Positions 5,574 through 25,012 of a stretch of 64,000 nucleotides of DNA are shown here, one piece after another. The translations under genes were made by a program, and so were the position numbers. The stretch's first letter is position 1. Each line of letters opens with the position of its first letter. The notes under the pieces were generated by a model. The model saw only the letters and a program-made list of their open reading frames with translations, was not told the DNA's origin and made no database searches. Source of the stretch: a virus; IMG/VR virus record IMGVR_UViG_3300042934_000619, positions 38,443-102,442 of that record. One strand, given 5' to 3'.

Positions 5574-7078
5574 CCGGCAAACGCCGTCGGACCACGGTGC
5601 TGGCTGCGCGCCAGCACCGTTCCGGCACGGTACTGATAGGTATCGCTGTCCTTGGTCTGGCGGCCCTGTGGTCTGCTCATCACGCCATCGCGGCGGCCGA
5701 CTGGGACGAGCGTACGGCCAGTCGCCTCACCGTGGTCTGGCTTGCTCTGTTCTTCGTGTTCATGGCGCAGACCCTCATGTATCACTTCGAACGTCCGTAC
5801 CGTCCGACGCCCCGTCAGAAGCGGCAGCTCGACAGTCTCCACGTAGCGATCCTCGTACCGGCGTACAACGAGGACCCCGGGTATTTCGAGCTGTGCCTGA
5901 AGTCCTTTCTTCGTCAGACGCGTCTCCCTGACTCCGTCCACATTGTCGACGACGGTTCGACGAACGGGGATTACGCGGATATACGGGCGTGGTGGGAACG
6001 CGAGGCGGGGAAGGCGGGGGTTGCCACTACCTGGCAACGCGTTCCGAACGGCGGAAAGCGCCACGCGCAGGCGCGGGGGGTGGATGTCAGCCCTGACGCG
6101 GACGTTTACATAACCTGCGACTCCGACAGCTGCTTTGCCCCTACCGCAGTGGCAGAAGTCATCGCCCCGTTCGTACGTCCTCGGGTTCAGTCGGTGGCAG
6201 GAATCGTGGTCGCCACCAACAACCGAGCCAATCTGCTGGCGCGGATCACGGACCTTTGGTTCACCACCACGCAGCTTGTCGACCGGTCCGGGCAGTCCGC
6301 CGTCGGAGCTGTCATGGTCAACTCCGGCCCGCTCGCTGCATACAGGGCGGAGGTGGTTCGCGACAACCTGGGATCCTACCTCAACGAGACATTCATGGGT
6401 CGCCCCGTCATGTTCTCGGACGACAGCCTCCTCACCCTCTATGCGCAGGAGCGTGGGCTCACCGTTCAGCAGCCATCGGCTGTTGTCTTCACGGCGATGC
6501 CGGAGAAGTGGTCACACTTCTGCCGCATGTACCTCCGGTGGATGCGCGGGTCGACGATCCGGTCTGTGTGGCGGATGAAGTATCTGAGCCTTGCGCGCCC
6601 CGCGTTCTGGCTGCATCTGCTGCGCTGGTTCCAGATGTTCCTCGTCCAGATGGTCACCGTCTGGCTGCTCCTGGTCGAGCCGATTGCGTACAGCAATCTC
6701 CCTCCTGCGAGCATGCTGTGGGTGCCCTTCTTCATCGGATGGGCACAGGGCCTGCGCTACATCAGCATCATCCGGAGCGACGAGCGAATTCGTTCTCGCG
6801 CGGTGACGTGGCTGCTGATGCCGCTGGCCATCGTGTTCGCCTGGACGGTACTCCGCTGGCTCCGCTGGTATGGCATCGCCACCTGCTACGTAACGGGTTG
6901 GGGTACCAGGCAAAACGGCGCGGAAGTATCCCTCGGGACGCCGAGCATTCCAAAGCAACGCACCGGTGAGACGGAGCAAGGGCATGAGGACACTGTCCCG
7001 CTCAAAGTGCTCCTCGACCCGTATGCGGAGATCACCACGGAGCTGGAGATCGAACAGCTCCGCAACACCAACCAGTAG
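5570..7078 (+). CDS. Processive GT2 glycosyltransferase (hyaluronan/chitin synthase-like)
   Basis: VPAYNED, VDDGS, GKRHA, CDSD, SGPLAAYR, SDDSLLT and YLRW (QxxRW variant); N- and C-terminal TM helices. Confidence 0.85.
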   Translation: MTGKRRRTTVLAARQHRSGTVLIGIAVLGLAALWSAHHAIAAADWDERTASRLTVVWLALFFVFMAQTLMYHFERPYRPTPRQKRQLDSLHVAILVPAYNEDPGYFELCLKSFLRQTRLPDSVHIVDDGSTNGDYADIRAWWEREAGKAGVATTWQRVPNGGKRHAQARGVDVSPDADVYITCDSDSCFAPTAVAEVIAPFVRPRVQSVAGIVVATNNRANLLARITDLWFTTTQLVDRSGQSAVGAVMVNSGPLAAYRAEVVRDNLGSYLNETFMGRPVMFSDDSLLTLYAQERGLTVQQPSAVVFTAMPEKWSHFCRMYLRWMRGSTIRSVWRMKYLSLARPAFWLHLLRWFQMFLVQMVTVWLLLVEPIAYSNLPPASMLWVPFFIGWAQGLRYISIIRSDERIRSRAVTWLLMPLAIVFAWTVLRWLRWYGIATCYVTGWGTRQNGAEVSLGTPSIPKQRTGETEQGHEDTVPLKVLLDPYAEITTELEIEQLRNTNQ

Positions 7079-7503
7079 TGAAGGAGGGAGACGTGGACGA
7101 AGACAGCACCATCGAGGTGCAGGTAACGATGAAGCCTTACCAGGCGCTTCGATTCGCCTGCGCCATGCGGCGCCTCGCCGAAATGTCCACGGCGAAAGAA
7201 GACAGGGAATTCTGGCGGTCCATCTATCACGAGGTGGGCGACCAGTGTGCAGGGGTGTACATCACCTCCCGTCGTCACGTCTGGCGGCCCGCCTACGACG
7301 ATGAAGTGGCTCTGAAGCGCGTGGTCGACGGGGACGAACCGTTCCCTGTTCTGTCGCGCATGGATGCCCGTCGAGCGCTTGTCGCGCTCAAAGACAAGCT
7401 GAGTGCTCGGCAGTTGGGGGAGCGCCTGTACATGGACCGCCGCACGGCATCCATGTGGCGTGCGGCATACAACCGGGGGGAGTGGAAGAAGTATGGGTTC
7501 TAG
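7078..7503 (+). CDS. Hypothetical protein, possible C-terminal HTH
   Basis: LSARQLGERLYMDRRTASMWR. Confidence 0.55.
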   Translation: MKEGDVDEDSTIEVQVTMKPYQALRFACAMRRLAEMSTAKEDREFWRSIYHEVGDQCAGVYITSRRHVWRPAYDDEVALKRVVDGDEPFPVLSRMDARRALVALKDKLSARQLGERLYMDRRTASMWRAAYNRGEWKKYGF

Positions 7504-7717
7504 GAGCAAGCCACTCAGCAGTGCCGAACAGGCTGTTCTCAGGAAGCTCATCGCGCGAGGCGGCACGTGGGCGAACGGGGACACTCCCCTGTGGGAGAGC
7601 AGGTACTGGACCCTGCATCTGCTGAACCGCCTGGCCAGCCAAGGACTGGTCAGCGAGGTGGAGCAGGACAGGAAATACCAGGCGACCCGCGACGGCCTGG
7701 CCGTCAACCGCTGGTGA
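7493..7717 (+). CDS. Small hypothetical protein (winged-helix-like)
   Basis: LNRLASQGLV...YQATRDG pattern. Confidence 0.5.
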   Translation: MGSRSKPLSSAEQAVLRKLIARGGTWANGDTPLWESRYWTLHLLNRLASQGLVSEVEQDRKYQATRDGLAVNRW

Positions 7718-7873
7718 CTCTGGCCTTCCAGTGGCACTGCCGTTAGAGTTCAATCACCGCCTGCGTACCCTGTGTAGAACCAAGGGACGTAACTGAACGT
7801 CTTGCAGACAAAGGGCCCGGCTGACAGATGATGCGTAAGGGCATCACGAGGGGCCCGCTAGGAAGGAGACAGC

Positions 7874-8896
7874 ATGGAAAACGTCGAGATCGAGGTCGAC
7901 GGTTGGATGTACCCGGTGGCGCCGCTCGACCCGGAGATGCACGACCGCCCCAGCCCCGCGTTCCCGATCGTCATCACTCCGGCGGTCGCCCAGTCGTGGC
8001 TGCGGTACAACTGGCGTAACCGCAACAAGCGCGGCAAGGGCATCAACGACTACAGCGCCGACATGACCAATGACCGCTTCGACCTCAACGGCACGACCAT
8101 CACCTTCTCCCGTCCGCTCGGACAGGGAGAGGACCCGGACGTCCCCGGCGGCAAGCCGGTCCTGATCGATGGTCAGCACCGGCTGGAGTCCTGCGTCAAG
8201 AGTGGGAAGCCGTTCCTCACCTACGTCATCTACGGACTCGACCCCACCGCCCGGCGTACCGTGGACGGCGGCATAAAGCGTCGCTTCCAGGACATCCTCC
8301 AGATGGATGGCGAGGTCAAGACGGACGTCCTCTCGTCGGTCACGGCGCGCTGTTTCGCCTGGACCATCGGCGACCGTCACCTCACCCTCAAGCGGGCGGG
8401 CATGACCAAGGCGGCGCTGGAGGGATTCCTCAAGGAGCACCCCGAGCTCCGGCGCAGTGTGGACGTGGCGGTCCAGGTTCACGGGGATTTCATCGGATCG
8501 GGCATCCGTAAGTCGGTGGTCGGCACGGCGCACTGGCTGCTCATGCAGGCCGATCCGACCGTCGCTCCCGAGTTCTTCATCCGCCTCGGCGACGGAGCGG
8601 AGATGCCCAAGGACCACCCGATCATGGTCCTGCGTCGGCGCATCATGAAGGACAAGACGGACCGGGAAGCGCGCAGCAAGCGTGACGTCCCGCACGTGCC
8701 GGACTGGCAGCAGCTCTGCTACATCATCCGTACGTGGAACGCGCTGATGGAGGACAAGTCGGACTTCGCGCTGGTGAGCCGGTACGACCACCAGCGTATG
8801 CCCGTCCCGATGACGGCCGTCGAGATCGATCCGTCGAAGAATGTCTGCCTCTCTCTGCTGGTGGACGACGACGACGAGATGCCCAAGGCATCCTGA
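7874..8896 (+). CDS. ParB/Srx-like (DGQHR) domain protein
   Basis: ITPAVAQSWL..N.RNR, LIDGQHRL. Confidence 0.75.
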   Translation: MENVEIEVDGWMYPVAPLDPEMHDRPSPAFPIVITPAVAQSWLRYNWRNRNKRGKGINDYSADMTNDRFDLNGTTITFSRPLGQGEDPDVPGGKPVLIDGQHRLESCVKSGKPFLTYVIYGLDPTARRTVDGGIKRRFQDILQMDGEVKTDVLSSVTARCFAWTIGDRHLTLKRAGMTKAALEGFLKEHPELRRSVDVAVQVHGDFIGSGIRKSVVGTAHWLLMQADPTVAPEFFIRLGDGAEMPKDHPIMVLRRRIMKDKTDREARSKRDVPHVPDWQQLCYIIRTWNALMEDKSDFALVSRYDHQRMPVPMTAVEIDPSKNVCLSLLVDDDDEMPKAS

Positions 8897-20540: not shown

Positions 20541-21008
20541 TTGGAAAACTTGGAAGAAGTGGAAAAAGGCGTGCTTTTCGACTCATGGTTGCACACGGTG
20601 CGCGCCCAGGAGCGGGACGGCGGGGTTGACTACCGGAACCTCGCGTGCTATCCGGACAAGCTCACGGACTACATACAGGACCACATGTCCACTGCGCTCC
20701 AGGGTCTTGAGGAGCTGTATGCCGAGCTTCCGTCCAAGGTTGCGAAGGACGATGAGCAGCGCGAGGCGTGGATCACGCAGCGCGAGAGCTTCATCATCAG
20801 GACGCGGGCTGCTCTTGATCATCTCGCTGCCGCTCTGTCCGCCGTCGGATGCACCGACGAGGAGCTGAGCGGATCCACGAAGGGGCGGGAAGAGAGCGAC
20901 GGGGCTCCTCGTACCGGTACACCGTCCTGGGTTCGCGTGGACATCGAGGGCGCCTCGCTGTCCCCCTCCGACGTCACGTGCGTCTCCGGCGACGTAATCG
21001 AAAAGTGA
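20541..21008 (+). CDS. Hypothetical protein, possibly degenerate all-alpha dUTPase/MazG-like
   Basis: Helical pattern ..YIQDH..ALQGLEELYAEL..LAAALSAVGCTDEEL. Confidence 0.45.
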   Translation: MENLEEVEKGVLFDSWLHTVRAQERDGGVDYRNLACYPDKLTDYIQDHMSTALQGLEELYAELPSKVAKDDEQREAWITQRESFIIRTRAALDHLAAALSAVGCTDEELSGSTKGREESDGAPRTGTPSWVRVDIEGASLSPSDVTCVSGDVIEK

Positions 21009-21079
21009 GCAGGTAGAAGGGACCCCCACACCCTTCATTCGAACTGTTCGTCGTATCATTCAGGGAGCGGTGGCCGCGT

Positions 21080-21154
21080 AGCGGGATAGCGCAGTTCGGT
21101 TAGCGCGCCGGGGCCATGACTCGGAGGTCGCAGGTTCAAATCCTGCTCCCGCAA
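21080..21154 (+). tRNA. tRNA-Met(CAT), initiator-like
   Basis: Full cloverleaf; 1:72 mismatch; loop GC-CAT-GA; T arm GCAGG-TTCAAAT-CCTGC; no encoded CCA. Confidence 0.75.
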
Positions 21155-21179
21155 CACCGCTCGGTTCGGGGAGGTTGGG

Positions 21180-21530
21180 ATGACGGAATCGGTTGCTGAA
21201 CGTCCCGCTGAACCGGTTGGAATGGGCACCACGTACGGAGGATTCGCCGACATAGCGCGTCTCCTCAATGCACGGCACCCGGAACGACCGACACCGTTCA
21301 GCCGACAACTGGCAGCGAAGTGGCACAAGCATCGGGACACGAACGGCTTCCCCGAGCGATGTCCTGTGGAGCTGGGACCCGGCAAGGTGAAGTATCTCTT
21401 CGACCTCGACGCTGTCGAACGGTGGCACACCGGCCGAAAGGTGATCCGCCGTCCCGTGAACCCCCCGATCGAGACGATCCCTCTGTTCCAGGTGGACAGC
21501 CGGGGGTTCTGGACTCCGCTCGCTTCGTAG
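21180..21530 (+). CDS. Putative HTH DNA-binding protein
   Basis: GFADIARLL..SRQLAAKW..FP..LFDLDAVERW. Confidence 0.55.
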   Translation: MTESVAERPAEPVGMGTTYGGFADIARLLNARHPERPTPFSRQLAAKWHKHRDTNGFPERCPVELGPGKVKYLFDLDAVERWHTGRKVIRRPVNPPIETIPLFQVDSRGFWTPLAS

Positions 21531-21550
21531 CGGGAATTCGGAAAAAGCGT

Positions 21551-21580
21551 TTGACCTTGAGGGCGGGGACCCGATAGGTT
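21551..21580 (+). promoter_or_regulatory. HrdB-like promoter for the Y RNA/Ro60 cluster
   Basis: TTGACC-18 nt-TAGGTT. Confidence 0.6.
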
Positions 21581-21638
21581 GAACACATCGAACGACAGGT
21601 GCGAAGGGTACAGCTGCTTCTTTCGTTCGGAAGTTTTT

Positions 21639-21775
21639 CTGTCTGGTGCGCAGACGACGGATACTTCACTGTTAATGAAGAGGTCCGGGGTTCGAGTCCC
21701 CGCCCGCTGGTAAAAAGGTGGGTAGCTCAGTTGGTAGAGCACTTACGTTTCCGTTGTCGACTTGATCTCAGACAG
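21639..21775 (+). ncRNA. Y RNA 1 (YrlA-like; permuted tRNA-Asn GUU domain)
   Basis: Terminal stem CTGTCTG/CAGACAG with GGTGCG..TGATCT; inside, anticodon arm, T arm, closed acceptor, D arm. Confidence 0.8.
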
Positions 21776-21795
21776 TTCAATTCAAAAGTGCGCAA

Positions 21796-21870
21796 GCGTC
21801 CGGTGCGAAGGCAACGACGGCTACTTCTTTTGGTGAAATCACGCCGTCACGCCGTACTGATCTCGGACGC
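21796..21870 (+). ncRNA. Y RNA 2 (minimal, no tRNA domain)
   Basis: GCGTCCG-GTGCGAAG...TGATCT-CGGACGC; inner stem GACGGC/GCCGTC. Confidence 0.75.
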
Positions 21871-21879
21871 GTACAACTT

Positions 21880-22019
21880 GTGCCTGGTGCGCAGATGAGG
21901 AGTTCTTCGCCTTGGGAGCGGGAGGTCGCGGGTTCAAATCCCGTTCGGTCGGCAGAGCTGACCGGTAGCTCAGTCTGGAAGAGCGCCTACGATCGCCTCG
22001 TCGACTTGATCTCAGGCAC
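21880..22019 (+). ncRNA. Y RNA 3 (YrlA-like; permuted tRNA-Pro UGG domain)
   Basis: GTGCCTG-GTGCG...TGATCT-CAGGCAC; loop CTTGGGA, T loop TTCAAAT, D arm GCTC..GAGC. Confidence 0.8.
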
Positions 22020-22029
22020 GAAAATCAGA

Positions 22030-22150
22030 TGTCCGGTGCGCAGGACGACGCGTTCATCGATGGTTCGACCCCACCCGGGAGTCCCTCGCAAGAGGCTCGC
22101 TCCTGTTGCCCACTTGGGGGCAGCTCGCGTTTCCGATCTGATCTCGGACA
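22030..22150 (+). ncRNA. Y RNA 4
   Basis: TGTCCG-GTGCGCAG...TGATCT-CGGACA; inner hairpins including a GGTTCGA T-loop-like element. Confidence 0.7.
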
Positions 22151-22156
22151 GTACAA

Positions 22157-22308
22157 GGGTGCGTAGCTCAGAAGGTAGAGCGGCCCGAAAACGGACGGGC
22201 GGCGTGTCGAGACGGTTGCGGATGCACCGAATGGCTCTCGCAGGGTCTGTAGGGAAGCGCGTTTTCCAAGCTCGGCTCACGGCGCGGGTTCGAGTCCCGT
22301 CGCATCCA
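22157..22308 (+). ncRNA. tRNA-like RNA with ~80-nt variable-region insertion
   Basis: GGGTGCG/CGCATCC-A acceptor, D arm GCTC-AGAAGGTA-GAGC, T arm GCGGG-TTCGAGT-CCCGT. Confidence 0.7.
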
Positions 22309-22410
22309 CGGCACATAATCGGCTCCGACGTCCCTACTCGACTTCAGTCGTCGGAGAAACGAGGACTCTGGCATTGACGATGGTTATGTCCTCGTTGCCC
22401 CGGCGCAAGC

Positions 22411-22496
22411 CGGGGTTACCCGGGAGGCCCTGGCCAGGCACACGGCTAAAACACCGGCGCACCCGGTGCGAGACGGTTCAAGTCCGTCAACTCCCA
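22411..22496 (+). ncRNA. Degenerate tRNA-like element
   Basis: T arm GACGG-TTCAAGT-CCGTC, variable-arm-like hairpin CGCAC/GTGCG; acceptor and D arm ambiguous. Confidence 0.4.
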
Positions 22497-22498
22497 CT

Positions 22499-22585
22499 GG
22501 TTCCTGGTGCGAAGCCACCACGGGTACTTCATTTCTCTCTCAAAGAAACCCGAACCCCGTATCGGCACCCCTGATCTCAGGAACC
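22499..22585 (+). ncRNA. Y RNA 5 (pyrimidine-rich loop)
   Basis: GGTTCCTG-GTGCGAAG...TGATCT-CAGGAACC. Confidence 0.75.
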
Positions 22586-22631
22586 GCATGACCACCGGCA
22601 CGACCGGTGCGACAGGAAGGAAGATGGAGAC

Positions 22632-24314
22632 ATGGCGCGCTTCAACTCGCGTGGACACCGGGCGAAGCCTGCGGTGGCGACGGTAAGCAGTCCGATCGGT
22701 ACTGCCACGAAGAAGGCGAACACCCGTACGTTCGAAGGCGGCGCGGGATACACGCGTGATGCCAAGACGGAGCTGTTCCTGCGTGCGACCGGTGCGTTCC
22801 ACGGCGGCGAGGGCAGCTTCTACGAGTCCGCCGACAAGCGCGACAACCGGCTTCGTGAGCTGGTACGTACGATCGCGATCGAAGACCCGGACTGGGGATT
22901 CGAGTTCGCGCGCTGGCTCCGGTCCGAGGGTCACATGCGCACGGCATCGCTGATGTTCGCCGTCGAGTACGTGCACGAGCGACTCGATGCGGAAGCGCAG
23001 GAGCCGCGCACCACCAAGTACACCAACCGTCAGATCATCGACGTCGTATGCCAGCGTCCCGACGAGCCTGGCGAGATCCTCGCGATCTGGACGGCGTGGT
23101 ACGGGCGGAACATCCCGCAGTCGGTCAAGCGCGGCGTCGCCGACGCGGTTCGGCGTCTGTACAGCGAGCGCTCGCTGCTCAAGTACGACACGGACTCGAA
23201 GGCGTACCGCTTCGCCGACGTGCTGGATCTGACGCACCCGACGCCGTCCCCCGAGAAGGCCGCATGGCAGGGCCTGCTGTTCTCGTACGCCCTCAACCGG
23301 CGGCACGGACGTGGGGATGACATCCCCAGCACGCTGGATATCATCCGCAACAACGCCTCGTTCCGAGCGCGGGCGGCTGAGACGCACTCGTTGCTGTGCT
23401 CGCCGGACGCTCTGCGTGCAGCGGGCATGACGTGGGAGGACGCGCTGTCCCTCGCGGGCCAAGTAGGCGTCGACAAGCGCAAGGTCTGGGAGGCCATGAT
23501 CCCCTCCATGGGGATCATGGCGCTGATCCGCAACCTGCGGAACTTCGACCAGGCTGGCGTCTCCGACGAGGTGGCCATGACGGTCATGGAGCGCCTGGCC
23601 AACCCCGAGGAGATCGCCCGGTCCAAGCAGTTCCCGTTCCGGTTCCTCGCCGCGCACCGCGCGACCAAGGACTCCCTGCGGTGGGCGTGGCCGCTGGAGC
23701 AGGCGCTTGGTCACTCGCTGGTCAACGTCCCCCGGCTCGACGGCCGGACGCTGATCCTCGTCGACCGGTCGCCGTCCATGTTCCCGGAGTACGACCACTG
23801 GTTCCCGACGCTGAAGAAGTCGGACATCAGCCGCGCCGACCAGGCTGCGGTGTTCGGCGCCGCGCTGGCCGTCCGTGCAGAGCAGCCGACGCTCGTGGAG
23901 TTCGGCGGCGGCTCGCGGGTGATCACCTTCCAGCGCGGTACGTCCGTGCTGAAGCTGGTCGACAAGTTCTACCGGGACCCGGGTACGGACATCCCGAGCG
24001 CGGTGAAGAAGCATTACGACGGGCACGACCGGGTCGTCATCCTCACCGACGAGCAGACCCGCCCCGGGTCCCTTCCGTCGAACATGTGGCGGAGCTACGG
24101 TGGCATGCGTGAGACGGAGGTCAACGACCTCGTCCCGAAGCACGTCCCTGTATTCATGTGGAATTTCGCCGGTTACTCGGCGGCGGCCATGCCGTCCGGG
24201 AACGAGGCGCGGTTCCACCTCGGCGGACTCACCGACAAGGCATTCCAACTCATTCCGATTCTGGAATCCGGAGTGAATGGCAGCTGGCCCTGGGAACTGG
24301 ACAGCACACCCTGA
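22632..24314 (+). CDS. rsr: Ro60/Rsr TROVE-domain RNA-binding protein
   Basis: N-terminal EGGAGY, ALIRNLRNF, SKQFPFRF; C-terminal vWA with VDRSPSM, GTD, ILTDEQ; 560 aa. Confidence 0.9.
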   Translation: MARFNSRGHRAKPAVATVSSPIGTATKKANTRTFEGGAGYTRDAKTELFLRATGAFHGGEGSFYESADKRDNRLRELVRTIAIEDPDWGFEFARWLRSEGHMRTASLMFAVEYVHERLDAEAQEPRTTKYTNRQIIDVVCQRPDEPGEILAIWTAWYGRNIPQSVKRGVADAVRRLYSERSLLKYDTDSKAYRFADVLDLTHPTPSPEKAAWQGLLFSYALNRRHGRGDDIPSTLDIIRNNASFRARAAETHSLLCSPDALRAAGMTWEDALSLAGQVGVDKRKVWEAMIPSMGIMALIRNLRNFDQAGVSDEVAMTVMERLANPEEIARSKQFPFRFLAAHRATKDSLRWAWPLEQALGHSLVNVPRLDGRTLILVDRSPSMFPEYDHWFPTLKKSDISRADQAAVFGAALAVRAEQPTLVEFGGGSRVITFQRGTSVLKLVDKFYRDPGTDIPSAVKKHYDGHDRVVILTDEQTRPGSLPSNMWRSYGGMRETEVNDLVPKHVPVFMWNFAGYSAAAMPSGNEARFHLGGLTDKAFQLIPILESGVNGSWPWELDSTP

Positions 24315-24445
24315 ATGCAGTAGATTCTTACACAACGGAGAAGGAACTCTAGCGCCAACTCCGACACCAATTTACATCCTGCGAGTGAATTGGTGATCTG
24401 CCCAGAGTCCGGCTGATGCATGCCCACGCGTCGGCCGGACGGCAG

Positions 24446-24514
24446 GGGGCCGCCGGTAGCTAAAGGGAGGACTGAGCAGCTCCCCGAAGATAGGTTCAAT
24501 TCCTACTGGTCCCA
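24446..24514 (+). ncRNA. Degenerate tRNA-like element
   Basis: Acceptor GGGGCCG/TGGTCCC-A, T loop TTCAATT; poor D arm, 10-nt anticodon-position loop. Confidence 0.4.
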
Positions 24515-24518
24515 CGAA

Positions 24519-24592
24519 GACCTCGTAGCTCAGTTGGATAGAGCGGTGGATTCCTAATCCGCAGGTCGCAGGTTCGAGTCCTGCCGTGGTCA
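24519..24592 (+). tRNA. tRNA-Arg(CCT)
   Basis: Canonical cloverleaf, GTGGA-TT CCT AA-TCCGC. Confidence 0.9.
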
Positions 24593-24593
24593 C

Positions 24594-24667
24594 GGACGCG
24601 TAGCCCAATTGGTAGAGGCGTCTGGCTCAGGTCCAGAAGGTTGGGGGTTCGAATCCCTCCGTGTCCA
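24594..24667 (+). tRNA. tRNA-Leu(CAG), short variable loop
   Basis: TCTGG-CT CAG GT-CCAGA; T arm GGGGG-TTCGAAT-CCCTC. Confidence 0.85.
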
Positions 24668-24703
24668 CTTGCTTCACCGGGACAGTCGAAGGAGATATGG
24701 CAA

Positions 24704-25012
24704 ATGCTGGTTGTGACGGTGAGTGTGTGGCCCGGCGGAGACTTCGAACGGGGCACCGAGGTGGCCCGTGTCGGACTGTTGAACAGGACGCAGCTCGGAG
24801 ACTTCGCGAACTACGATCTGGTGGCCCTGCTGGCTCGTGACAAGGAGGAGCGGGTCATCCGGTCGGAGGTCAACCAGCATGAGCGGGCGCACGGTTGGGT
24901 GCCACTCGTCCGGCGGGCCATGACCGAAATTCACCTCAGCGATCCGTGTATGCATGGCGCCCCGTACGATGACCCCACCGCTGTACTACTTCGGAAGGGG
25001 AGCCATGAGTGA
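24704..25012 (+). CDS. Hypothetical protein
   Basis: AAGGAG RBS; MLVVTVSVWPGG. Confidence 0.6.
   Translation: MLVVTVSVWPGGDFERGTEVARVGLLNRTQLGDFANYDLVALLARDKEERVIRSEVNQHERAHGWVPLVRRAMTEIHLSDPCMHGAPYDDPTAVLLRKGSHE

What the first reader, a model, noticed from the sequence alone, without database searches (positions are those of the whole stretch)
21551..24314. Phage Ro60 operon preceded by an array of five different Y-RNA-like genes
Seen: after a TTGACC-N18-TAGGTT promoter there are five units (21639-21775, 21796-21870, 21880-22019, 22030-22150, 22499-22585). Each opens with a stem plus GGTGCG(A/C)AG and closes with TGATCT plus the complementary stem. The outer stems differ in sequence but all pair perfectly (covariation), while the interiors are different. 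The Ro60/TROVE gene follows directly. Known: bacterial Ro60 (Rsr) genes sit beside Y RNAs that bind Ro through a conserved terminal helix and tether effectors such as PNPase. The motif closely resembles the vertebrate Y RNA helix (CUGGUCCGAAG...ACUUGAC, from recall). Single YrlA-Ro pairs are already described in some phages. Inference: this is a modular RNP toolkit, one Ro scaffold with five interchangeable RNA adaptors, possibly for RNA repair or decay or for counter-defence.
Basis: partly seen in the sequence, partly recalled or inferred. Interest (0 to 1): 0.92.

Follow-up and report, generated by a model that had tools for sequence, protein, structure and literature searches.

The report
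Phage Ro60 gene with Y-RNA array
An uncultured, probably Streptomyces-infecting phage carries a Ro60 RNA-binding protein gene preceded by five small Y-RNA genes that share one conserved protein-docking stem; this is a larger copy of a system already known in bacteria and some phages, not a new kind of system.

Summary
All five units exist at the stated coordinates. Each folds into the same terminal helix: a variable 6-8 bp stem, then GGUGCG on the 5' side and UGAUCUC on the 3' side.

A covariance model built mostly from related phages finds exactly these five units in the 102-kb genome and nothing else credible.

The same handle occurs 119 times next to Ro60 genes in related phage loci. It occurs 175 times next to chromosomal rsr genes of Streptomyces and other actinomycetes. 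Every hit is on the Ro60 strand. Covariation is very strong: 96.5% of cells paired and 309 double-sided changes.

The protein is a genuine Ro60. It has a TROVE domain, a vWA domain with a MIDAS motif, and a fold that matches only Ro60 structures.

Units 1 and 3 are YrlA-type tRNA mimics. Unit 4 is a diverged one. Units 2 and 5 are short YrlB-like hairpins. So there are three structural classes, not five unrelated cargos.

Streptomyces chromosomes carry a YrlA, short, YrlA triad. Phages expand this to 4-6 units, so five is not unique: four related contigs have six.

This is an expanded phage version of the known Ro60/Y-RNA module. Ro60 binding and function remain untested. This scan had already flagged the same stretch once (e1-6028976).

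The parts
21551..21580 (+). Putative promoter: TTGACC (21551-21556), an 18-nt spacer, TAGGTT (21575-21580)
   Evidence: Read in the sequence. It aligns with a conserved -35/-10 pair ahead of the arrays of L006, L007, L008 and L010. It fell below the threshold of the generic sigma-70 scan.
21589..21629 (+). Truncated remnant of a 'unit 0'. It keeps a 7-bp stem and the GGUGCGAAG motif but has lost the 3' half with the UGAUCUC-type motif.
   Evidence: The relatives L006, L007, L008 and L010 have an intact unit of about 70 nt here (R1 hits). The alignment shows a deletion of about 40 nt in the window. The fold is not significant (z -1.2).
21639..21775 (+). Y RNA unit 1: YrlA-type, with the handle plus a permuted tRNA-like module (hairpin, T arm, closed acceptor-like stem, D arm)
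   Evidence: Rfam YrlA 41.9 bits, E 4e-7, below the gathering score of 69. R1 52.7 bits, E 2.7e-10, and this unit was not in the training set. The structure is supported by covariation across 23 homologues.
21796..21870 (+). Y RNA unit 2: short YrlB-like hairpin carrying the same handle
   Evidence: Fold. R1 71.7 bits, but this unit was in the training set. The interior is 79% identical to the short unit of a Streptomyces rsr locus. Covariation.
21880..22019 (+). Y RNA unit 3: second YrlA-type tRNA-like unit
   Evidence: Rfam YrlA 35.8 bits over the T, acceptor and D core. R1 35.7 bits, E 2.7e-6, not in the training set. Alignment and covariation.
22030..22150 (+). Y RNA unit 4: diverged tRNA-like unit with a weak T arm, an extended acceptor-like stem and an altered D-arm stem. 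It carries UUCAUC in place of UACUUC.
   Evidence: R1 29.8 bits, E 6.8e-5, not in the training set. Its nearest relative is L009:1745-1855, a compact YrlA-type unit (67% identity; alignment).
22157..22308 (+). tRNA-like RNA interleaved in the array. It has normal acceptor, D and T arms, a G3:U70 pair, and an insert of about 95 nt.
   Evidence: Rfam tRNA 38.9 bits with a 95-nt insertion. ARAGORN does not call it. It is 76-81% identical to unannotated stretches of Streptomyces phages such as Alone3, GiJojo, pSt2308 and Comrade.
22323..22416 (+). Three stable hairpins of unknown role between the two tRNA-like elements
   Evidence: The fold of 22309-22420 gives -48.4 kcal/mol, z -3.4, with 0 of 200 shuffles as stable.
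22422..22496 (+). Cloverleaf tRNA-like RNA (5-bp acceptor stem, two arms, canonical T arm) that ends 2-3 nt before unit 5
   Evidence: Fold. It is conserved in L007, L008 and L010 directly ahead of their last unit. Neither Rfam nor ARAGORN calls it.
22499..22585 (+). Y RNA unit 5: short hairpin type with a pyrimidine-rich loop
   Evidence: Fold. R1 60.9 bits, but this unit was in the training set. The interior is 76% identical to L008:2872-2953.
22593..22612 (+). Hairpin in the Ro60 5' UTR. Its 3' strand runs into GGUGCGA, just upstream of the ribosome-binding site.
   Evidence: It is conserved, with a compensatory stem change, in L006, L007, L008 and L010. Thermodynamically it is not distinctive (z +0.8). 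Its role is speculative.
22632..24314 (+). Ro60 (Rsr/TROVE) protein gene, 560 aa
   Evidence: Pfam TROVE E 2.5e-21. PHROG 850 'RNA-binding protein' E 2.6e-41. PDB 9KOP (phiLo Ro60) E 5e-26. AlphaFold2 model with pLDDT 76; the 12 best listed PDB fold matches (13 at E <= 0.001) are all Ro60. The DxSxS MIDAS motif is invariant.

Best explanation
This is a phage-borne Ro60/Y-RNA module of the actinobacterial type.

Proposed mechanism:
1. One promoter at 21551 drives a polycistronic precursor. It holds a decayed unit, five intact Y RNAs, two interleaved tRNA-like RNAs and the Ro60 mRNA.
2. Host tRNA-processing and other RNases cut the precursor into separate RNAs.
3. Each Y RNA closes into a long terminal stem. 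The conserved part of that stem (variable outer stem, GGUGCG, a second stem, UACUUC; on the 3' strand UUGAUCUC) is the docking site for the phage Ro60 ring.
4. The variable interior is the effector-binding module. Three units are tRNA-like and two are short hairpins.
5. By analogy with Deinococcus, Salmonella and Thermus phage phiLo, the RNPs tether Ro60 to host enzymes. These are most likely PNPase and tRNA-binding proteins. The RNPs also gate the Ro60 cavity, so structured-RNA decay or quality control is redirected during infection.

What is shown here: the anatomy, the conservation, the covariation, the exclusive linkage to Ro60 genes, and the protein's identity. What is inferred: co-transcription, processing, Ro60 binding, the effectors and the biological role.
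For: - All five units share one fold.
- R1 finds only these five in the genome.
- R1 gives 119 hits in 51 phage loci and 175 hits in 80 actinobacterial rsr loci. All are on the Ro60 strand, none on the opposite strand.
- In three complete phage genomes the hits lie only beside Ro60. An apparent orphan hit in a Streptomyces genome turned out to sit just upstream of a second TROVE gene.
- Handle covariation over 114 units: 96.5% paired, 309 double-sided changes, 0 of 500 shuffles as good, and 34-49% paired when the partners are slid.
- The YrlA-type structure covaries in the T arm, acceptor-like stem and stem 2.
- Sub-threshold Rfam YrlA hits fall on units 1 and 3.
- The Ro60 fold and MIDAS motif are present.
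- The promoter is conserved in relatives.
- Published precedent: M. smegmatis YrlA and YrlB lie upstream of rsr and are processed from one precursor (PMC4201824). phiLo Ro60 binds two upstream Y-like RNAs and forms a complex with host PNPase (PMC12135203).
Against: - There are no expression, processing or binding data. The phage is known only from a metagenome.
- The Rfam YrlA scores (41.9 and 35.8 bits) are below the gathering score of 69. Rfam Y_RNA gives no hit at E <= 10.
- The published GNCGAAN(0-1)G motif is not matched literally. The handle reads GGUGCG(A/C)AG.
- Which conserved element Ro60 contacts (outer handle or the UACUUC region) cannot be told from sequence.
- The phage encodes no obvious effector such as RtcB, a CCA-adding enzyme or an Rnl ligase.
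- All loci searched were chosen because they hold Ro60. Linkage is therefore controlled only by their flanks, their opposite strands and a few whole genomes.
Confidence: 0.8

Rival explanations
1. The region is one long structured 5' leader of the Ro60 mRNA rather than a set of free RNAs. Ro60 would bind the repeated handles in cis, which titrates the protein and feeds back on its own translation or mRNA stability.
For: - The units are 9-20 nt apart with no internal promoters or terminators.
- A further hairpin with GGUGCGA sits next to the ribosome-binding site and is conserved in the closest relatives.
- Many bacterial rsr leaders carry hairpins that sequester the ribosome-binding site.
Against: - In M. 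smegmatis the equivalent upstream RNAs are processed from the precursor and accumulate as free Rsr-bound RNAs (PMC4201824).
- In L034 and L046 the arrays lie downstream of Ro60, which a leader model does not explain.
- The tRNA-like elements next to the units fit excision.
- The UTR hairpin is not thermodynamically distinctive.
Confidence: 0.08
2. The conserved stem is a processing or binding signal for something other than Ro60, for example RNase III or another host protein. Its linkage to Ro60 would then reflect only shared transcription with tRNA-like genes.
For: - Ro60 binding is untested.
- Long perfect stems are typical RNase III substrates.
- The locus sits in a tRNA gene cluster.
Against: - All 294 model hits lie beside a Ro60 gene on its strand.
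- None lies elsewhere in three complete phage genomes, although those genomes hold many other tRNA genes.
- One hit revealed a second, unsuspected TROVE gene.
- The 5'-strand motif resembles the GGUCCGA contacted by Xenopus Ro60, as cited in PMC4201824.
Confidence: 0.07
3. The units are decayed tRNA genes or artefacts of tandem tRNAs, where the T arm of one tRNA next to the D arm of the following one imitates YrlA.
For: - Chen et al. warn of this artefact (PMC4201824).
- The model also gave a YrlA-like hit across the true tandem tRNAs at 24564-24619.
- The region is rich in tRNA genes.
Against: - ARAGORN finds no tRNA in the units.
- No matching 5' or 3' tRNA halves flank the T and D arms.
- The acceptor-like stem closes on itself and covaries.
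- Units 2 and 5 have no tRNA features yet carry the same handle.
- The handle itself has nothing to do with tRNA.
Confidence: 0.02

Closest known systems
Mycobacterium smegmatis rsr locus with YrlA and YrlB (Chen et al. 2014, PMC4201824)
   Same: - It is actinobacterial.
- The Y RNAs lie upstream of the Ro60 gene on the same strand and are made from one precursor.
- One RNA has a permuted tRNA-like module (T arm, closed acceptor stem, D arm) and one is a short hairpin.
- A CGAA-type motif lies near the 5' end.
   Different: - It has two RNAs, against five intact units plus a remnant here.
- It is chromosomal, not phage-borne.
- The exact handle sequence of the mycobacterial RNAs could not be compared, because the paper's figures and supplements are not held.
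Streptomyces chromosomal rsr loci (unpublished as far as the searchable library shows; seen here in L058-L137)
   Same: - The handle is identical (GGUGCG, UACUUC, UUGAUCUC).
- The order YrlA-type, short, YrlA-type, then rsr matches units 1-3, with 72-79% interior identity.
   Different: - They have 2-3 units, never more than 3 in the 80 loci.
- They have no counterpart of units 4 and 5 or of the interleaved tRNA-like RNAs.
- Their Ro60 proteins form a largely separate branch from the phage proteins (quick tree).
Thermus phage phiLo Ro60 with Yrl1 and Yrl2 (PMC12135203; PDB 9KOP, 9L5Y)
   Same: - It is a phage-encoded Ro60 with Y-like RNAs directly upstream.
- Binding was shown experimentally, and a RYPER-like complex forms with host PNPase.
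- It is the best structural match to this protein.
   Different: - It has only two RNAs.
- Its RNAs give no R1 hit at E <= 0.01.
- The proteins are about 25% identical, and the host phylum differs.
Salmonella Typhimurium rsr-yrlBA-rtcBA operon and Deinococcus radiodurans Yrn1/Yrn2 RYPER
   Same: A Ro60 ring plus modular Y RNAs: a docking stem, and an effector module that is tRNA-like in YrlA and Yrn1. The Y RNA tethers Ro60 to PNPase.
   Different: - In Salmonella the RNAs lie 3' of rsr and are linked to the RtcB/RtcA repair genes, which this phage lacks.
- The Rfam YrlA model scores these phage units below its threshold.
Vertebrate Y RNAs (Y1, Y3, Y4, Y5)
   Same: Several Y RNAs share one Ro-binding bulged helix and differ in their loops. 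The 5' strand motif GGUCCGA (quoted in PMC4201824) differs from GGUGCGA by one base.
   Different: - They have no tRNA-like module.
- They are separate Pol III genes.
- The Rfam Y_RNA model gives no match here.

Membership tests
Bacterial/phage YrlA-type Y RNA (Chen et al. 2014; Rfam RF02553) | Encoded within about 4 kb of a Ro60 orthologue, on the same strand | tested here: met
   All five units lie 46-990 nt upstream of the Ro60 start on the + strand. The same holds for 294 homologous units.
Bacterial/phage YrlA-type Y RNA (Chen et al. 2014; Rfam RF02553) | tRNA-like effector module: conserved T arm, closed acceptor-like stem, UA linker and D arm | tested here: met
   Units 1 and 3 have all of these elements. 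The structure covaries across 23 homologues. Unit 4 has a diverged version. Units 2 and 5 lack it, so they are YrlB-like, not YrlA.
Bacterial/phage YrlA-type Y RNA (Chen et al. 2014; Rfam RF02553) | Score at or above the Rfam gathering threshold (69 bits) | tested here: not met
   Unit 1 scores 41.9 bits (E 4e-7) and unit 3 scores 35.8 bits. The Ro60-adjacent YrlA-like matches in all eight cultured actinophage loci checked also score 32-47 bits. The cut-off therefore appears tuned to other lineages. It is an operational threshold, not a biological feature.
Bacterial/phage YrlA-type Y RNA (Chen et al. 2014; Rfam RF02553) | GNCGAAN(0-1)G motif near the 5' end | tested here: inconclusive
   There is no literal match. 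The handle reads GGUGCGAAG (units 2 and 5) or GGUGCGCAG (units 1, 3 and 4), which shares the CGAAG core only in units 2 and 5. A second, inner CGG-N-UACUUC element aligns to the Rfam consensus at this position.
Y RNA in the functional sense (a Ro60-bound RNA) | Long stem formed by the 5' and 3' ends that carries a conserved Ro60-binding helix | tested here: met
   Terminal helix seen in the folds. Covariation: 96.5% paired, 309 double-sided changes, 0 of 500 shuffles as good. Invariant unpaired or bulged bases.
Y RNA in the functional sense (a Ro60-bound RNA) | Physical binding by Ro60 and Ro60-dependent accumulation | not testable with these tools
   This needs RIP, EMSA or Northern blots. 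Only genomic linkage is available.
Vertebrate Y_RNA (Rfam RF00019) | Match to the family covariance model | tested here: not met
   No hit at E <= 10 in 21000-24800. The resemblance is limited to the short 5'-strand motif.
Ro60/Rsr protein (TROVE + vWA) | TROVE HEAT-repeat ring followed by a vWA domain with a MIDAS DxSxS motif | tested here: met
   Pfam TROVE 76.8 bits against a cut-off of 23. The AlphaFold2 model matches 9KOP, 2NVO, 1YVP and human Ro60 over their whole length, TM 0.56-0.72. D378, S380 and S382 are invariant in 10 homologues.

The most novel reading that the evidence does not exclude
The phage-specific additions (units 4 and 5, the lost unit 0, and the two anticodon-less tRNA-like RNAs threaded through the array) could turn a host-type Ro60/Y-RNA triad into a multi-adaptor hijacking or counter-defence device. 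One Ro60 ring would be loaded with different RNAs to capture several host tRNA-binding or RNA-decay enzymes (PNPase and others), or to act as a decoy for tRNA-targeting defence nucleases. Ro60 would also feed back on its own mRNA through a handle-like hairpin beside the ribosome-binding site.
Probability: 0.15. Interest if true: 0.75.

Novelty: new variant of a known kind. Interest (0 to 1): 0.45.

Why it matters
Ro60/Y-RNA particles are conserved from bacteria to humans. It is still unclear what the different Y RNAs of one organism do, or which proteins the tRNA-like module recruits.

This locus and its relatives show three things:
- Actinomycetes and their phages share one sharply defined docking handle.
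- Phages repeatedly carry larger sets of Y RNAs than the sampled actinobacterial chromosomes: 4-6 against 2-3.
- None of these RNAs is annotated in the cultured-phage records examined. In Gordonia phage Neville one lies under an annotated small 'hypothetical protein' gene.

This gives a natural panel of adaptors on one scaffold for pull-down experiments. It also gives a simple model for annotating these RNAs. It does not reveal a new kind of system.

Tried and rejected
- Megablast of the locus against cultured phages gave no match.
- Rfam at gathering thresholds found only tRNAs. Rfam Y_RNA gave nothing even at E <= 10.
- My strict regular-expression descriptor undercounted units compared with the covariance model, so I used it only as a first look.
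- The generic sigma-70 scan did not call the proposed promoter. I kept the promoter only because it is conserved in relatives.
- RNA-repair partners (RtcB, CCA-adding enzyme, Rnl-type ligase) are absent from the genome, so a repair-operon reading like the Salmonella one was dropped.
- The 5' UTR hairpin as an autoregulatory site: it is conserved in close relatives but present in only 17 of 132 loci and not thermodynamically distinctive. I kept it only as a side note.
- The anticodon-like loops of units 1 and 3 are not conserved in homologues; the loop sequences vary. I therefore read that hairpin as the variable arm described for YrlA (bioRxiv 10.1101/312249), not as a functional anticodon arm.
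- The whole-genome search in two large Streptomyces genomes scored only 150 of about 7000-8000 candidates, so it cannot prove genome-wide exclusivity there.
- Two reviews (PMC10870794, PMC6047535) and the supplementary tables of Chen et al. 2014 are not held. What they say about the number of Y RNAs per genome could not be checked.
- The Ro60 tree is a quick FastTree run with several long branches. No direction of transfer is claimed from it.
Full report
**What is in the sequence**

The window belongs to a 102,442-bp virus record with direct terminal repeats.

Between 21551 and 24314 on the + strand lie, in order:
- a TTGACC-N18-TAGGTT promoter-like pair;
- a short hairpin that carries GGUGCGAAG;
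- four closely spaced units, separated by 20, 9 and 10 nt;
- a 348-nt gap;
- a fifth unit;
- 46 nt later, a 560-codon ORF.

Each unit, folded alone, gives the same closing structure. This is an outer stem of 6-8 pairs that differs in sequence in every unit, a bulged U, a small internal loop, a C-G/G-U step, and a second stem.

**Is it more than chance?**

The 3' motif occurs 13 times in the window against 4.4 expected (0 of 100 shuffles reach that). Five copies lie in this stretch.

I built covariance model R1 from 23 short units, 21 of them from other contigs. R1 recovers all five units. That includes the three that were not in the training set (E 2.7e-10, 2.7e-6 and 6.8e-5). It finds nothing else credible in the window or the whole genome.

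**Relatives**

The ORF's protein found 43 related loci in IMG/VR, several cultured actinophages at 35-46% identity, and 80 actinobacterial chromosomal loci, mostly Streptomyces, at 48-57%.

R1 gives 119 hits in 51 phage loci and 175 hits in 80 bacterial loci. Every hit is on the Ro60 strand and none is on the other strand. Most lie within about 1.7 kb upstream of Ro60. In two contigs (L034, L046) they lie downstream.

In three complete phage genomes the hits lie only beside Ro60. In one Streptomyces genome a seemingly stray hit proved to sit just upstream of a second TROVE gene.

Across 114 phage-linked units, 96.5% of cells in the handle form standard pairs, with 309 double-sided changes. None of 500 shuffles reaches this, and sliding the partners drops pairing to 34-49%.

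The invariant positions are G7, U9, G10, C11 and G12 on the 5' strand and C-U-C on the 3' strand. There is also a U-N-CUUC element about 23 nt from the 5' end, in 111 of 114 units.

**The protein**

The protein is a genuine Ro60:
- Pfam TROVE, 76.8 bits;
- PHROG 850;
- sequence match to phage phiLo Ro60, PDB 9KOP;
- an AlphaFold2 model (pLDDT 76) whose 12 best listed PDB matches (13 at E <= 0.001) are all Ro60 proteins from phiLo, Deinococcus, Xenopus and human;
- an invariant DxSxS MIDAS motif in the vWA domain.

**Anatomy of the units**

Units 1 and 3 are YrlA-type. After the handle come a hairpin, a T arm, an acceptor-like stem closed by a loop, a UA linker and a D arm. Rfam YrlA matches them at 41.9 and 35.8 bits. 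That is below the gathering score of 69, with E 4e-7 and 2.4e-5. The whole structure covaries across 23 homologues.

The hairpin ahead of the T arm has variable loop sequences in homologues. I therefore read it as the variable arm described for YrlA (bioRxiv 10.1101/312249), not as a conserved anticodon arm.

Unit 4 is the most diverged (R1 29.8 bits). It aligns with a compact YrlA-type unit of L009, and it keeps a weak T arm, an extended acceptor-like stem and a re-paired D-arm stem.

Units 2 and 5 are short hairpins. [quoted passage not shown]

So there are three structural classes, not five unrelated interiors. Units 1 and 3 are 70% identical inside.

**Other elements in the region**

The hairpin at 21589-21629 is the remnant of a further unit. 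That unit is intact in L006, L007, L008 and L010. The window has lost about 40 nt, including the 3' motif.

The gap between units 4 and 5 holds three things:
- a tRNA-like RNA with a 95-nt insert (Rfam tRNA 38.9 bits), conserved in several Streptomyces phages;
- three stable hairpins (z -3.4);
- a cloverleaf tRNA-like RNA that ends 2-3 nt before unit 5 and is conserved in L007, L008 and L010.

The promoter hexamers align with a conserved pair in the same four relatives.

**How common is an array of five?**

Streptomyces chromosomes carry YrlA-type, short, YrlA-type, then rsr. There are 2-3 units per locus and never more than three in the 80 loci. Units 1-3 of the window mirror this layout, with 72-79% interior identity.

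Phage contigs carry more:
- six units in L007, L008, L009 and L046;
- five in L006, L010, L034 and L042;
- four in L018, L036 and L040.

The window's Ro60 groups with L006, L007 and L008 (SH-like support 99). Most phage Ro60 proteins lie apart from the chromosomal Streptomyces branch in a quick tree. I claim no direction of transfer from it.

The cultured actinophages checked have 1-2 sub-threshold YrlA-like matches near Ro60, none annotated. The literature search found no paper on Y RNAs of Streptomyces or of actinophage arrays.

**Most likely mechanism (inferred)**

One promoter drives a precursor that holds the Y RNAs, the tRNA-like RNAs and the Ro60 mRNA. This is as in M. smegmatis, where YrlA and YrlB come from one precursor upstream of rsr (PMC4201824).

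Processing of the tRNA-like elements would free the neighbouring units. Units 1 and 3, with acceptor-like stems of 6-7 pairs, may also be cut by RNase P as the mycobacterial YrlA is.

Ro60 docks on the conserved handle. In Xenopus the protein contacts mainly the 5' strand motif GGUCCGA (quoted in PMC4201824), which differs by one base from the motif here.

The interiors then recruit host factors. The likely candidates are PNPase, as shown for Deinococcus, Salmonella and phage phiLo (PMC12135203), and proteins that recognise the tRNA elbow.

The phage encodes no RtcB, CCA-adding enzyme or Rnl-type ligase. Any effector is therefore probably a host protein.

**Comparison and verdict**

The locus works like, and by its defining features belongs with, the bacterial and phage Ro60/Y-RNA (YrlA/YrlB) modules. 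Two tests fail: the Rfam YrlA score cut-off and a literal match to the published 5' motif. The structural and genomic criteria are all met.

It is not a member of the vertebrate Y_RNA family by model search.

What is new is a matter of degree and detail:
- a defined actinobacterial handle with a second invariant element;
- a three-unit layout in Streptomyces;
- expansion to 4-6 units with phage-specific types and interleaved tRNA-like RNAs in phages.

I rate it a new variant of a known kind, with moderate interest.

Ro60 binding, processing and function remain untested. The phage is uncultured, so experiments must use heterologous expression or cultured relatives.

Noticed in passing
window 22157-22308: A tRNA-like RNA with normal acceptor, D and T arms, a G3:U70 pair and an insert of about 95 nt. 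It is not called by ARAGORN. It is 76-81% identical to unannotated stretches in Streptomyces phages Alone3, LuckySocke, GiJojo, pSt2308, Comrade, Kela and others, some of them far from their Ro60 gene.
   Followed up: partly
window 22422-22496: A cloverleaf RNA with a canonical T arm and a 5-bp acceptor stem but no standard D or anticodon arm. It ends 2-3 nt before unit 5 and is conserved at the same place in L007, L008 and L010. It contains a hairpin followed by GGUGCGA, like the one in the Ro60 5' UTR.
   Followed up: partly
window 22593-22612: A hairpin whose 3' strand runs into GGUGCGA, about 20 nt ahead of the Ro60 start and next to the ribosome-binding site. It is conserved with a compensatory change in L006, L007, L008 and L010. 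It could be a Ro60 feedback site, but the fold is not distinctive (z +0.8) and only 17 of 132 loci have the motif there.
   Followed up: partly
window 21589-21629: A decayed sixth Y-RNA unit. It keeps the 5' motif and a new 7-bp closing stem but has lost the 3' half that is intact in four relatives.
   Followed up: yes
L005 2754-2870 (Gordonia phage Neville); L004 2559-2807 (Gordonia phage VanLee): YrlA-like RNAs upstream of Ro60 lie under annotated features. In Neville the match overlaps a 45-codon 'hypothetical protein' (gp90). In VanLee two YrlA-like matches flank or overlap the annotated tRNA-Arg(tct). These are probably annotation errors.
   Followed up: no
L057 5079-5242 (Streptomyces phage BRock); L053 5467-5699 (phage Alone3): Sub-threshold matches to the manA RNA motif (49.7 and 47.8 bits against a gathering score of 55.2) between tRNA-Lys genes just downstream of Ro60. 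No counterpart was seen in the window.
   Followed up: no
G001 (Streptomyces sp. CA-249302) C1:4727743-4728904: This genome has a second TROVE gene with its own Y-RNA-like unit just upstream, besides the rsr locus at 2.586 Mb.
   Followed up: partly
L062 (contig CAZYSQ010000001.1, 96.7 kb, labelled uncultured Acholeplasmataceae MAG): It encodes a Ro60 that is 55% identical to the window's, with an actinobacterial-type Y-RNA handle upstream. The contig is about the size of a phage genome and may be a mis-binned actinophage or actinomycete contig.
   Followed up: no
L058-L137, about 70 nt upstream of rsr: Most Streptomyces rsr leaders carry a conserved pyrimidine-rich stretch able to pair with the GGGGGA ribosome-binding site, flanked by a GAATTC palindrome. 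This suggests translational control of rsr that is unrelated to the phage leader.
   Followed up: no
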